Source: a virus. From it: a stretch of DNA of 38,964 nt. Below the pieces are notes generated by a model, which was given only the letters and a program-made list of their open reading frames with translations, was not told the origin of the DNA and made no database searches. The stretch lies in the UHGV virus genome UHGV-0287902, one strand, 5' to 3'. The translations under genes were made by a program, and so were the position numbers. Below, in pieces: positions 37,370 through 37,944 of the stretch; position 1 is the first letter of the stretch; each line of letters opens with the position of its first letter.

Positions 37370-37538
37370 TTGCACGAATTACATCAGAAAAGCACGCGTT
37401 CCATAACTGCATAGCGGATGAATCACCTGCTGTATGAAAAGAGGTAAAGTTACCCCTGGTGGATGTCATTGCTGCAATTGTAATATCAGCTGCAATTCGC
37501 GCAGCCTGTAACTTTGGGTCTGTGGTTAGTTTATCCAT
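37332..37538 (-). CDS. hypothetical small protein, convergent with 37169-37369
   Basis: 68 aa; AGGA 3 nt upstream of ATG; 38-bp 3' overlap with plus ORF. Confidence 0.3.
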   Translation of the reverse strand: MDKLTTDPKLQAARIAADITIAAMTSTRGNFTSFHTAGDSSAMQLWNACFSDVIRAISESVDLREPQK

Positions 37539-37645
37539 TTTTCCTGCCTGAACAGATATATCTCTGCTTTACAGGAGACCGGGGAATATCATAGGATACG
37601 CCACGAGCTCGAAGTAAAGCATTGATGCAAGTTTTTACAGATTGA

Positions 37646-37684
37646 CCCAGCATAGTTCCAGCTATGCTGGGTTTCCCTTTTATG
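37646..37684 (+). terminator. strong intrinsic terminator upstream of com-mom control region
   Basis: 10-bp stem CCCAGCATAG/CTATGCTGGG, loop ttccag, then TTTCCCTTTTAT. Confidence 0.65.
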
Positions 37685-37719
37685 TAGTATCCTGTTGATT
37701 TGAAACATACTACATATGC

Positions 37720-37944
37720 GCGCGATCCTACCTTCACTGGATAAAAAGTCAATAAAATGATCATTTTATGATCGTTTTCACACCCTAAGTCTTCGTTTTC
37801 TTTTAGTAAATAATCACCTCCCTGAATCATTGTTGATGACTTTTCAATCTATTTGTTGTATCAATTAAACACATCGAATCGATCGTTTTTGTCGATCGAT
37901 TAGGCGAGAAAGATATCATCAACAAAGCAGGAGGTTATGCGGCC
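37720..37944 (+). promoter_or_regulatory. com-mom control region with clustered GATC sites and palindromes
   Basis: GATC at 37724, 37759, 37770, 37881, 37894; palindromes AAAATGATCATTTT and AATCGATCG-tttttgt-CGATCGATT. Confidence 0.55.

What the first reader, a model, noticed from the sequence alone, without database searches (positions are those of the whole stretch)
37370..37944. Strong terminator and GATC cluster insulating com-mom; doubtful minus-strand ORFs
A 10-bp GC-rich hairpin with a U-run (37646-37684) sits about 280 bp after the last + accessory ORF and just before a region with five GATC sites and two palindromes upstream of com. In Mu, mom expression is controlled by Dam methylation of GATC sites in this position, so equivalent control is plausible. 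The terminator lies inside a 99-aa minus ORF, which I therefore distrust; a 68-aa minus ORF with an RBS remains possible. The region could alternatively encode a small RNA ending at the hairpin.
Basis: partly seen in the sequence, partly recalled or inferred. Interest (0 to 1): 0.45.

Follow-up and report, generated by a model that had tools for sequence, protein, structure and literature searches.

The report
Two-way control region before com-mom
The stretch before the com-mom DNA-modification genes of this Mu-like E. coli prophage holds a Mu/P22-gtr-style Dam-methylation/OxyR site next to com and a separate leftward small-gene unit with a conserved RNA hairpin: a variant of known phage control logic, not a new kind of system.

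Summary

- **Two GATCs, Mu-like control.** Sites 37881 and 37894 lie in the palindrome AATCGATCG-N7-CGATCGATT. It is homologous to Mu's second and third mom GATCs and has the GATCG-N7-CGATC core of the P22 gtr OxyR half-sites. The best OxyR double half-site match in the whole window is 37851-37896.
- **Different geometry from Mu.** The site ends about 50 nt before com, so it must overlap the promoter as in gtr. Mu's C-box is absent.
- **Three GATCs, a separate module.** Sites 37724, 37759 and 37770 belong to 37560-37850, which some relatives with the same com core lack. It carries a leftward promoter, TTGACT-16-TAGGAT, with a GATC in its -10. Distant relatives keep a promoter here.
- **Hairpin.** It is maintained by compensatory changes (four stem versions), but its U-tract is good only in some alleles. 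It is a plus-strand terminator here, and probably also part of the leftward leader.
- **ORFs.** The 99-aa ORF is not coding. The 68-aa ORF and a converging 66-aa plus-strand ORF are.

No expression data were available, so all promoters, RNA ends and protein binding are inferred.

The parts
37169..37369 (+). 66-aa accessory ORF (MDKNKKQPDTKG...). It converges on the 68-aa ORF and overlaps it by 38 bp.
   Evidence: Variable columns fall 3/1/10 by codon position from 37169 to the start of the overlap with the 68-aa ORF, P = 0.004. PGAP annotates it as a CDS. No family match.
37332..37538 (-). 68-aa ORF, probably a real orphan gene. It is the cargo of the leftward transcription unit in this allele.
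   Evidence: Outside the overlap, 13 of 19 variable columns are at the third codon position, P = 0.002. It is intact at 68 aa in 7 variants of 92-100% DNA identity. AGGA lies upstream of the ATG. Only near-identical relatives are found.
37531..37830 (-). 99-aa ORF (phrog_26524). Not a gene: an open frame across conserved non-coding DNA.
   Evidence: Substitutions fall 7/11/12 by codon position, P = 0.28. In relatives the frame gives 14, 56, 82, 99, 106, 135, 137 or 154 aa with unrelated C-termini. PGAP marks it frameshifted or incomplete in all 6 records checked that carry it. It has no counterpart in L058 or L059.
37560..37626 (-). Long hairpin (HP3) of the predicted leftward 5' leader. On the plus strand it contains a promoter-like TTTACA (37568-73), 18 nt, TAGGAT (37592-97).
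   Evidence: Inverted repeat 37560-72 / 37614-26. It appears in the consensus fold of five leaders. The hexamers are conserved in L058 and L059 but lie in the stem and apical hairpin of HP3. Position 37560 is the left border of homology with most relatives.
37644..37684 (+). Hairpin HP1 plus pyrimidine tail. In this allele it is an intrinsic-terminator-like element on the plus strand. It is also the second hairpin of the predicted leftward leader.
   Evidence: -21.4 kcal/mol, z = -7.8 and scored as a terminator. Four different stem sequences all fold at -17.8 to -22 kcal/mol. Six of 12 pairs carry changes on both sides, 84.8% of cells are paired against 31-47% when slid, and 0 of 500 shuffles reach the observed score.
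37681..37716 (-). Hairpin HP2 (TATGTAGTAT, 16 nt, ATACTACATA), predicted to sit at the very 5' end of the leftward RNA.
   Evidence: The arms are kept in L058 and L059 while the loop changes in sequence and length.
37725..37752 (-). Leftward sigma-70-type promoter: -35 TTGACT (37752-37747), 16-nt spacer, -10 TAGGAT (37730-37725). GATC 37724-37727 overlaps the -10. Predicted start near 37717.
   Evidence: L058 has TTGACT-16-TAAGAT(C) with a diverged spacer. L059 has unrelated sequence with TTGACG-16-TATAAT (11 of 12) in the same place. Also found in L002 and L036.
37754..37778 (.). A/T-rich palindrome AAAATGATCAT-TTT-ATGATCGTTTT with GATCs at 37759 and 37770, directly upstream of the leftward -35. 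It is either an UP-element-like tract or an operator of unknown partner.
   Evidence: Invariant in all E. coli-type variants, one GATC in L058, none in L059. It is the only GATC pair 11 bp apart in the window.
37851..37896 (.). Predicted OxyR tetramer site: half-sites ATTTGTTGTATCAAT (37851-65) and ATCGTTTTTGTCGAT (37882-96), 31 bp start to start.
   Evidence: Best match in the 38,964-bp window to ATAGnTnnnAnCTAT-N16-ATAGnTnnnAnCTAT, at 14 of 20. Mu's best match has the same spacing and covers its three GATCs. P22 gtr scores 18 of 20 at N17. The block from about 37850 onward is conserved in every variant, including those with a different upstream module.
37877..37901 (.). Palindrome AATCGATCG-TTTTTGT-CGATCGATT carrying the two Dam sites (37881, 37894; 13 bp apart) that are homologous to Mu GATC 2 and 3.
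   Evidence: Almost invariant across E. coli relatives; one variant, L057, has GATCTATT in the right arm with both GATCs kept. Unique in the window. Same GATCG-N7-CGATC core as the P22 gtr OxyR half-sites A and C (PMC2909390).
37892..37919 (+). Candidate com-mom promoter: -35-like TCGATC (37892-97), 16-nt spacer, -10 TATCAT (37914-19), start near 37926. Tentative.
   Evidence: Read from the sequence. Same -35-like hexamer and similar GATC-to--10 distance as the P22 gtr promoter (start site from PMC2909390). The -10 is not conserved: CATCAA in most relatives, TATCAA in L030.
37930..38836 (+). GGAGG ribosome-binding site (37930-34), com (37945-38145) and overlapping mom (38099-38836).
   Evidence: Com phrogs E = 5e-13; Mom-like phrog_1384 E = 2e-83; PGAP: Com family.

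Best explanation
The interval is a composite control region between two back-to-back transcription units of an Sp18-type Mu-like prophage.

(1) com-mom control core, 37850-37944. It holds an OxyR-type site (37851-37896). Its promoter-proximal half-site is the palindrome with the two Dam sites.
- Inferred mechanism: when the two GATCs are unmethylated, OxyR binds and, because the site reaches to about -30, occludes the weak com-mom promoter. Dam methylation prevents binding.
- This follows Mu mom logic but has the geometry of the P22 gtr promoter-proximal OxyR site.

(2) Separable module, 37560-37850, serving a leftward unit.
- A sigma-70 promoter (37752..37725) has a GATC over its -10 and an A/T-rich GATC palindrome upstream.
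- It starts an RNA near 37717. The roughly 175-nt leader folds into three hairpins (HP2, HP1, HP3).
- The leader precedes an exchangeable small gene: the 68-aa ORF here, a 53-56-aa zinc-ribbon protein in most relatives.

(3) The GC-rich hairpin HP1 is kept by selection as an RNA structure. In this allele it also carries a U-rich tail on the plus strand. It should therefore stop plus-strand transcripts coming from the 66-aa gene and further upstream before they reach com-mom.

Shown: the sequence features, homology, covariation, and coding versus non-coding status.
Inferred: every promoter, RNA end, OxyR and Dam effect, and termination.
For: com-mom core:
- It aligns to Mu's GATC region, with AATCGATCG and GATCGATTA identical.
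- GATC-N9-GATC pairs 13 bp apart occur upstream of com in most enterobacterial classes examined.
- It shares its core with the experimentally bound, methylation-sensitive P22 gtr OxyR half-sites (PMC2909390).
- It is the top OxyR-consensus hit of the whole window, with the same 31-bp half-site spacing as Mu.
- Conservation in relatives that have a different upstream module starts at about 37835-37850.
- The palindrome is unique in the window, so it is not the shared late-promoter activator site.

Leftward unit:
- The promoter hexamers and their spacing are kept while the spacer diverges (L058). L059 has a non-homologous 11-of-12 promoter at the same spot.
- The zinc-ribbon gene is conserved at protein level, with all cysteines kept, and in L058 is followed by a minus-strand terminator.
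- The cargo is swapped at about 37540-37560.
- The 68-aa ORF shows third-position bias.
- The leader has a consensus fold, and in L059 the apical stem of HP3 is lengthened by base changes (read from the sequences; L059 was not in the alignment).

Hairpin:
- stability and terminator score; four stems; covariation.
- The hairpin unit is tandemly duplicated in several relatives.
Against: - There are no transcript, methylation or binding data for this phage.
- The OxyR assignment rests on a crude consensus count (14 of 20). In several relatives the top consensus hits are not near com.
- The com-mom -10 proposed here is not conserved in most relatives. An alternative promoter further upstream (ATGACT, 17 nt, TATCAA at 37836-37864) cannot be excluded.
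- No binding site for the phage's C activator could be identified. C is only 40% identical to Mu C.
- Promoter-like matches are no more frequent than in shuffles.
- Hairpin energies do not favour either strand, so the strand on which it acts is not settled.
- The relatives are closely related. Only L058 and L059 are informative for the module.
Confidence: 0.55

Rival explanations
1. All five GATC sites form one Mu-like Dam-controlled region for mom, and the hairpin exists solely as a strong terminator that insulates com-mom from upstream transcription.
For: - This allele has a canonical hairpin plus U-tract.
- The hairpin unit is tandemly duplicated in some relatives, as might be expected if termination were under selection.
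- mom is toxic in Mu and is guarded by several layers of control (PMC3378877).
- All five GATCs are conserved in the E. coli-type variants.
Against: - Relatives of the L030 and L040 type keep the identical com-proximal core but replace everything left of about 37835, including three GATCs and the hairpin.
- The three distal GATCs coincide with a leftward promoter and its upstream tract.
- U-tracts are inadequate in the type B, L058 and L059 alleles, although the stem is maintained.
- Most relatives already have a terminator after DUF826 and no plus-strand gene between it and the hairpin.
Confidence: 0.15
2. The hairpin is the terminator of a plus-strand RNA of about 77 nt. It would start near 37604 from TTTACA-18-TAGGAT and be fully antisense to the leader of the leftward mRNA, controlling that mRNA. 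This is compatible with the best explanation as an added layer.
For: - Both hexamers and the 18-nt spacing are conserved in L058 and L059, while neighbouring bases vary.
- A terminator-like hairpin lies about 45 nt downstream.
- The duplicated unit covers the RNA body plus the hairpin.
Against: - The hexamers lie in the basal stem and apical hairpin of HP3 of the leftward leader, which can explain their conservation.
- The promoter match is only 9 of 12.
- U-tails are poor in most alleles.
- There is no Rfam match.
- The cargo proteins are not hydrophobic toxin-like peptides and match no known family.
Confidence: 0.25
3. The 99-aa minus-strand ORF (phrog_26524) is a real gene, and the hairpin and GATCs are simply part of its coding sequence.
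For: - A PHROG match at E = 1e-43 and 36 database proteins of 56-154 aa.
- Residues 23-54 are invariant in the protein alignment.
Against: - No codon-position bias, 7/11/12.
- Product lengths of 14 to 154 aa with frameshifted, unrelated C-termini.
- The segment encoded by the hairpin is replaced wholesale between alleles.
- PGAP flags it as a pseudogene in all 6 records checked that carry it.
- It is absent from L058 and L059, which keep the DNA elements.
- Its invariant part coincides with the leftward promoter and palindrome.
Confidence: 0.03
4. Nothing functional is here. It is leftover mosaic DNA between morons, with a chance hairpin and chance GATCs.
For: - GATC density is not significant on its own.
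- Promoter matches are at the level of shuffles.
- The module is confined to one group of prophages.
Against: - Compensatory changes in the hairpin.
- Independent re-creation of a near-consensus promoter at the same place in L059.
- Homology of the GATC palindrome across Mu-like phages of several genera.
Confidence: 0.03

Closest known systems
Bacteriophage Mu mom operon control region (Dam, OxyR, activator C, Com)
   Same: - com and mom overlap directly downstream.
- The upstream sequence is homologous to Mu's GATC-bearing region, with the same 13-bp GATC pair.
- Two OxyR-like half-sites lie 31 bp apart.
- A C/Mor-family activator gene is present in the phage.
(PMC3378877, PMC4461284.)
   Different: - Two GATCs rather than three (the first is TATC).
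- The site ends about 50 nt before the com ATG, against about 75 nt in Mu, so it must overlap the core promoter instead of lying upstream of the C site.
- There is no TTAT-N6-ATAA C-box and no T6 run before the -10.
- C is only 40% identical to Mu C.
- gin is 3.5 kb away, not adjacent.

P22 gtr (and agn43) OxyR/Dam-controlled promoters
   Same: - A palindromic half-site GATCG-N7-CGATC with two Dam sites 13 bp apart.
- A second half-site 31-32 bp upstream.
- An identical -35-like TCGATC inside the half-site.
- A -10 candidate about 20 nt after the last GATC, and a short leader.
(PMC2909390.)
   Different: - There is no third half-site with a second 13-bp GATC pair at the gtr distance, so the ON/OFF alternative-site switch is not evident.
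- The upstream GATC pair here is 11 bp apart, 122 bp away, and tied to another promoter.
- The consensus match is weaker: 14 of 20 against 18 of 20.
- The downstream genes are DNA-modification genes that probably also need a phage activator.
Dam-sensitive promoters with GATC in the -10 hexamer (IS10 pIN type; from memory, Roberts et al. 1985)
   Same: The leftward promoter's -10, TAGGAT, is followed by C, so a GATC spans the 3' end of the hexamer. This is conserved in 13 of 14 variants of this segment that carry the homologous promoter, L058 included.
   Different: No experimental evidence here. Variant L037 has lost the GATC, and L059 has a promoter without one. The downstream gene is a small accessory gene, not a transposase.
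Mu momP2 divergent promoter
   Same: Leftward transcription is predicted from the region upstream of com-mom. Mu has a divergent promoter that competes with Pmom (PMC3378877).
   Different: momP2 overlaps Pmom. The promoter here lies about 170 bp further upstream, in a separable module, and has its own gene.
Phage morons (promoter, gene, terminator cassettes) and Rho-independent terminators
   Same: - A self-contained unit of promoter, leader, small gene and, in L058, terminator, inserted between gin and com. The cargo is exchangeable.
- A GC-rich hairpin followed by a U-rich tail.
   Different: - The leader is conserved while the cargo varies.
- The hairpin lies in the 5' leader of the leftward unit.
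- It qualifies as a terminator only on the opposite strand, and only in some alleles.

Membership tests
Mu-type mom control region | Overlapping com-mom genes immediately downstream | tested here: met
   com 37945-38145 and mom 38099-38836. Com phrogs E = 5e-13, Mom-like phrog E = 2e-83. PGAP annotates a Com family protein.
Mu-type mom control region | Upstream sequence homologous to Mu's GATC-bearing OxyR region | tested here: met
   AATCGATCG...GATCGATTA aligns to Mu L001 2674-2699. The same block is present in all relatives.
Mu-type mom control region | Three GATC sites, spaced 18 and 13 bp, upstream of the activator site | tested here: not met
   Only the 13-bp pair is present. The position of Mu's first GATC reads TATC and lies 22 bp away.
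Mu-type mom control region | C-activator box TTAT-N6-ATAA between the GATCs and a weak promoter with a T6 run | tested here: not met
   No match with up to 1 mismatch in 37850-37944. About 27 nt of Mu sequence, including the box, has no counterpart.
Mu-type mom control region | Phage-encoded C/Mor-family late activator acting at this promoter | tested here: inconclusive
   A C homologue is present at 9770-10192, 40% identical to Mu C. No motif shared with the lys-upstream region was found, so its site is unknown.
Mu-type mom control region | Expression depends on Dam and is repressed by OxyR on unmethylated DNA | not testable with these tools
   Needs dam and oxyR reporter assays and EMSA.
OxyR/Dam GATC-pair promoters (P22 gtr type) | Half-site palindrome GATCG-N7-CGATC (two Dam sites 13 bp apart) | tested here: met
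   Window 37881-37897, against P22 TTGATCG-N7-CGATCAA for half-sites A and C.
OxyR/Dam GATC-pair promoters (P22 gtr type) | Second OxyR half-site about three helical turns upstream (31-32 bp) | tested here: met
   ATTTGTTGTATCAAT at 37851-65 scores 7 of 10. The combined 14 of 20 is the best hit in the window. Mu scores 14 of 20 at the same spacing, and P22 18 of 20 at N17. This is consensus-level evidence only.
OxyR/Dam GATC-pair promoters (P22 gtr type) | Last GATC at about -33, inside the -35 region of the regulated promoter | tested here: inconclusive
   TCGATC-16-TATCAT would put GATC 37894 at about -32. But the -10 varies among relatives and no start site is known.
OxyR/Dam GATC-pair promoters (P22 gtr type) | Third half-site with a second GATC pair, giving alternative ON and OFF occupancy (phase variation) | tested here: not met
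   There is no other 13-bp GATC pair in the window. The 37759/37770 pair is 11 bp apart, 122 bp upstream, and absent from L030-type relatives.
Rho-independent terminator | Stable GC-rich stem-loop | tested here: met
   -21.4 kcal/mol, z = -7.8. The structure is conserved with compensatory changes.
Rho-independent terminator | U-tract directly 3' of the stem, as a conserved feature | tested here: inconclusive
   Met in the window (TTTCCCTTTT) and marginally in L036. Not met in L002 (type B), L058 or L059.
Rho-independent terminator | Transcript 3' ends at the tail | not testable with these tools
   Needs Term-seq or 3' RACE.
Protein-coding gene (99-aa ORF, phrog_26524) | Reading frame preserved in relatives, with third-position bias of substitutions | tested here: not met
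   Lengths of 14-154 aa with frameshifts. Codon-position counts 7/11/12.
Type I toxin-antitoxin / cis-antisense RNA locus | Small hydrophobic toxin ORF plus an antisense RNA with its own promoter and terminator | tested here: inconclusive
   A candidate antisense promoter and terminator are present, but their conservation is confounded by structure in the leftward RNA. The cargo ORFs are not hydrophobic and vary between alleles. No PADLOC, NCBIfam or Rfam match.

The most novel reading that the evidence does not exclude
In Sp18-type Mu-like prophages, com-mom may have been rewired from the Mu arrangement (OxyR site upstream of a C-dependent promoter) to a gtr/agn43-like one (a Dam-sensitive OxyR half-site over the -35).

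A divergent accessory-gene promoter nearby carries a GATC over its -10 and would respond to methylation in the opposite sense. Together the two could make a methylation-state-dependent, possibly heritable (phase-variable), choice. One state would favour expression of the leftward accessory gene and the other would license the toxic DNA-modification operon. This would matter in lysogens, or during replicative transposition when the DNA is hemimethylated.
Probability: 0.12. Interest if true: 0.6.

Novelty: new variant of a known kind. Interest (0 to 1): 0.38.

Why it matters
Mom-type DNA modification is toxic to the host, and its multilayer control in Mu is a textbook case.

This prophage family occurs in about 4% of complete E. 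coli genomes (217-233 of 5,426), including EHEC O157, O26, O103 and O111 strains.
- It keeps the Dam/OxyR element but places it over the promoter, as in the P22 gtr phase-variation system, and drops the Mu C-box.
- This gives a natural comparison for how the same epigenetic module is redeployed.

The work also has two practical consequences.
- It removes a spurious 'hypothetical protein' family (phrog_26524, and the PGAP pseudogenes) from consideration.
- It points to real but unannotated small genes and a conserved structured leader, which annotation pipelines miss.

Tried and rejected
- **Rfam:** a scan of 36400-38964 at E up to 1 gave only a noise-level Esr41 hit outside the region.
- **Protein families:** Pfam, NCBIfam, PHROGs and PADLOC on the 68-aa, 66-aa, zinc-ribbon and 86-aa proteins gave no significant family.
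- **Homologue searches:** the 68-aa ORF and the zinc-ribbon protein returned only near-identical sequences. An exhaustive HMMER search of 1.8 billion representatives with the 68-aa ORF gave nothing convincing.
- **Module in other contexts:** it was found only in Mu-like prophages, at 90% identity or more, in E. coli genomes and in two Stx phages carrying an inserted Mu-like phage. It is therefore not a dispersed repeat.
- **C-activator box:** neither the Mu consensus nor a comparison with the lys-upstream region gave a usable motif.
- **GATC palindrome as shared late-promoter site:** rejected, because it is unique in the window.
- **GATC density as evidence:** rejected as not significant.
- **Strand of selection on the hairpin:** G-U versus A-C pairs and strand-specific energies were inconclusive. 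The model-based alignment also misplaces indels in two stem types.
- **'ATCAATTAA' at 37860-68 as a duplicated end of this phage's own gin:** rejected. This gin ends differently, at 34336. The resemblance is to Mu's gin end and OxyR region only.
- **Literature on EHEC prophage sRNAs:** HnrS (PMC13502914) is encoded on the prophages Sp9, Sp10 and Sp12, not on Sp18, and no supplement was available. The original Mu OxyR papers (PMC147061, PMC401183) are not held.
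Full report
**Context.**
- The window is a complete Mu-like prophage of E. coli. It is 100% identical over the query region to strain 102651.
- The right end reads: gin, DUF6645 (34422-36476), DUF1378, DUF826, a terminator at 37100-37125, a small plus-strand ORF, the interval in question, then com (37945-38145) and overlapping mom (38099-38836).
- Related prophages occur in 217-233 of 5,426 complete E. coli genomes.

**Observation.**
- The hairpin has 11-nt perfectly complementary arms at 37645-55 and 37662-72. 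As plus-strand RNA it forms 13 pairs at -21.4 kcal/mol, z = -7.8, and is followed by UUUCCCUUUUAU.
- The GATCs are at 37724, 37759, 37770, 37881 and 37894.
- The palindromes are at 37754-78 and 37877-901, with a further inverted repeat at 37681-716.
- The two minus-strand ORFs are as described.
- Five GATCs in 178 bp is the densest cluster in the window, but a cluster of five or more arises in 36% of Markov simulations. The count itself proves nothing.

**The interval is made of two separable parts.** I aligned 640 bp upstream of com from nine E. coli prophage variants and 50 distinct com-upstream variants from 85 loci.
- From about 37850 to com, the sequence is conserved in every E. coli variant.
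- The 37560-37850 segment is shared by most variants, but L030/L040-type prophages have unrelated DNA there, with another minus-strand gene.
- Left of 37560 the cargo differs again.

**The com-proximal core.**
- *Homology to Mu.* The palindrome AATCGATCG-TTTTTGT-CGATCGATT aligns to Mu's AATCGATCG-GTAATAC-AGATCGATT, that is Mu's second and third mom GATCs.
- *Distribution.* A GATC pair 13 bp apart occurs upstream of com in Mu and D108-like phages and in relatives from Edwardsiella, Symbiopectobacterium, Apirhabdus and others. It is usually accompanied by a third GATC 18-19 bp upstream. In the window that third site reads TATC.
- *Comparison with P22 gtr.* I read the gtr regulatory region directly. 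Its OxyR half-sites A and C are TTGATCG-N7-CGATCAA, the same GATCG-N7-CGATC core. They were shown to bind OxyR only when unmethylated (PMC2909390).
- *Consensus scan.* The OxyR double half-site consensus with a 16-nt gap has its best match in the whole 38,964-bp window at 37851-37896, at 14 of 20. Mu's best match has the same spacing and spans its three GATCs. P22 scores 18 of 20 with a 17-nt gap.
- *Not the activator site.* The palindrome is unique in the window, so it is not the activator site shared by the late promoters.

**Geometry differs from Mu.**
- The last GATC is 51 nt before the com ATG, against 78 nt in Mu.
- Mu's C-box TTAT-N6-ATAA and its T6 run have no counterpart.
- The phage's C protein is only 40% identical to Mu C.
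- A Mu-like placement would put the transcription start inside com, so the OxyR-type site must overlap the promoter.
- A candidate promoter, TCGATC (37892-97), 16 nt, TATCAT (37914-19), mirrors the P22 gtr promoter. There the same TCGATC lies in half-site C and the last GATC is at -33 (PMC2909390).
- That -10 is not conserved in most relatives, and an upstream alternative (ATGACT, 17 nt, TATCAA at 37836-64) cannot be excluded. I could not find the C site.

**The 37560-37850 module.**
- *Leftward promoter.* The scan finds TTGACT-16-TAGGAT at 37752..37725, with GATC 37724 overlapping the -10.
  - L058 (mom 82% identical) has TTGACT-16-TAAGAT(C) with only half of the spacer conserved.
  - L059 has unrelated sequence at this place, yet it contains TTGACG-16-TATAAT, an 11-of-12 match, at nearly the same distance from the next element.
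  - That is the pattern expected of a real promoter. The predicted start, near 37717, lies 1-3 nt before the inverted repeat 37716-37681.
- *Leader.* A consensus fold of five leaders gives a 5'-terminal hairpin (HP2), the GC-rich hairpin (HP1) and a long hairpin (HP3). These are followed by an A-rich stretch, a ribosome-binding site and the start codon.
- *Cargo in relatives.* It is a 53-56-aa zinc-ribbon protein conserved at protein level: MDKEPVCPAC...CPACSP against MDKEARLCPSC...CPKCSP. It has a GGAG site and, in L058, a minus-strand terminator.
- *Cargo in the window.* It is the 68-aa ORF.
- *Upstream pair.* GATCs 37759 and 37770 lie in an A/T-rich palindrome just upstream of the -35. It may be an UP-like tract or an operator; I cannot say which.

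**Coding status.**

| ORF | Variable columns by codon position (1/2/3) | P | Other evidence | Verdict |
|---|---|---|---|---|
| 68 aa, minus | 2/4/13 outside the overlap | 0.002 | 68 aa in all seven variants | coding |
| 66 aa, plus (37169-37369) | 3/1/10 | 0.004 | annotated as a CDS by PGAP | coding |
| 99 aa, minus | 7/11/12 | 0.28 | 14-154 aa in relatives, through frameshifts | not coding |

- Both coding ORFs are orphans.
- The 99-aa frame has its hairpin-encoded segment replaced wholesale between alleles. PGAP flags it as a pseudogene in all 6 records checked that carry it.
- Its PHROG match reflects repeated annotation of conserved non-coding DNA.

**The hairpin.**
- Ten distinct copies of the unit fall into four stem versions: CCCAGCATAG/CTATGCTGGG; CCCAG(A)ATAG/CTATCTGGG with a CGG/TCG extension; AGGTCCAGATAG/CTATCTGGACCT; and GACCCGGTAG/CTACCGGGTC. 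The main copies fold at -17.8 to -22 kcal/mol.
- On a model-based alignment, 6 of 12 pairs have changes on both sides. 84.8% of cells pair, against 31-47% when the partner is slid, and no shuffle of 500 reaches the observed covariation. This alignment leans toward the structure, and it also misplaces some indels.
- The structure is therefore under selection.
- The tail is always ...CCCTTT(T)ATGTAGT. It passes the U-tract criterion only in the window type and, marginally, in L036. It fails in type B, L058 and L059.
- Energies do not favour one strand.
- My reading is that the conserved role is as an RNA structure in the leftward leader. In this allele it also acts as a plus-strand terminator for transcripts from the 66-aa gene and further upstream, which does insulate com-mom.
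- Several relatives carry a tandem duplication of the 79-bp hairpin unit.

**Small-RNA alternative.**
- TTTACA-18-TAGGAT (37568-97) is conserved in L058 and L059. It could give an RNA of about 77 nt ending at the hairpin, antisense to the leftward leader.
- Both hexamers lie within HP3 of that leader: the basal stem and the apical UAUC-CUAU-GAUA hairpin. In L059 the apical stem is lengthened by base changes (read from the sequences; L059 was not part of the fold).
- Their conservation is therefore ambiguous.

**Comparison and novelty.**
- The core works like the Mu mom Dam/OxyR control and is homologous to it. It fails two Mu features, three GATCs and the C-box placement, and matches P22 gtr geometry instead.
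- It lacks gtr's third half-site, so a phase-variation switch is not evident.
- The leftward promoter with a GATC in its -10 resembles IS10 pIN (from memory).
- Overall this is a new variant of a known kind, of moderate interest.
- All functional steps (OxyR binding, Dam sensitivity, promoter use, termination) are inferred and need the experiments listed.

Noticed in passing
L002 3388-3700 (LC727895) and hit H39 (NZ_CM129862): In some relatives com is followed by a DNA cytosine methyltransferase instead of mom, with the same upstream module and GATC palindrome. The com-plus-control cassette therefore seems to be reused for a different DNA-modification enzyme.
   Followed up: partly
L004 3012-3172; also L042, L044, L057, L101, L059: Tandem duplication of the roughly 79-bp unit (GAAGTAAAGCATTGATGC..., hairpin...TTTATGTAGT). 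The upstream copy is usually degenerate, at -11 to -12 kcal/mol.
   Followed up: partly
window 37169-37538: Two orphan small genes, 66 aa on the plus strand and 68 aa on the minus strand, converge and overlap by 38 bp. Both show third-position substitution bias, and neither has a family match. Their transcripts would be mutually antisense.
   Followed up: partly
window 37877-37901, minus strand; same element in L002, L030, L036, L058: On the minus strand the GATC palindrome is repeatedly scored as terminator-like, with 9 pairs (6 in L058) and then a T-rich tail. This is probably a by-product of the A/T-rich OxyR-site spacer, but it could stop antisense transcripts entering from com.
   Followed up: no
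window 36814-36827: The only exact match in the window to the Mu C-box pattern TTAT-N6-ATAA (TTATTCCCGCATAA) lies 12 nt upstream of the DUF826 start codon. Significance unknown.
   Followed up: no
window 34422-37093: A DUF6645-DUF1378-DUF826 block lies between gin and com in this Mu-like prophage and its E. coli relatives. From memory, this gene trio is typical of the late region of lambdoid and Stx prophages, which suggests a transferred moron block.
   Followed up: no
window 37860-37868 versus L001 2666-2674: 'ATCAATTAA' upstream of the GATC pair matches the last codons and stop codon of Mu gin, which overlap Mu's OxyR region. The window's own gin ends differently, at 34336. The core therefore looks like a relic of a Mu-type gin-mom junction.
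   Followed up: yes
L058 1305-1346, L059, L060: In the L058-L060 class, the com leader holds a short hairpin just before the ribosome-binding site (GCCAC...GTGGC, or GCCG...CGGC in L060), preceded by a good -10 (TATACT or TATAGT). The window has no counterpart.
   Followed up: no
window 36482-36564, minus strand: A weak Esr41-like Rfam hit of 22 bits, against a gathering score of 102 (E = 0.32). I treat it as noise.
   Followed up: no
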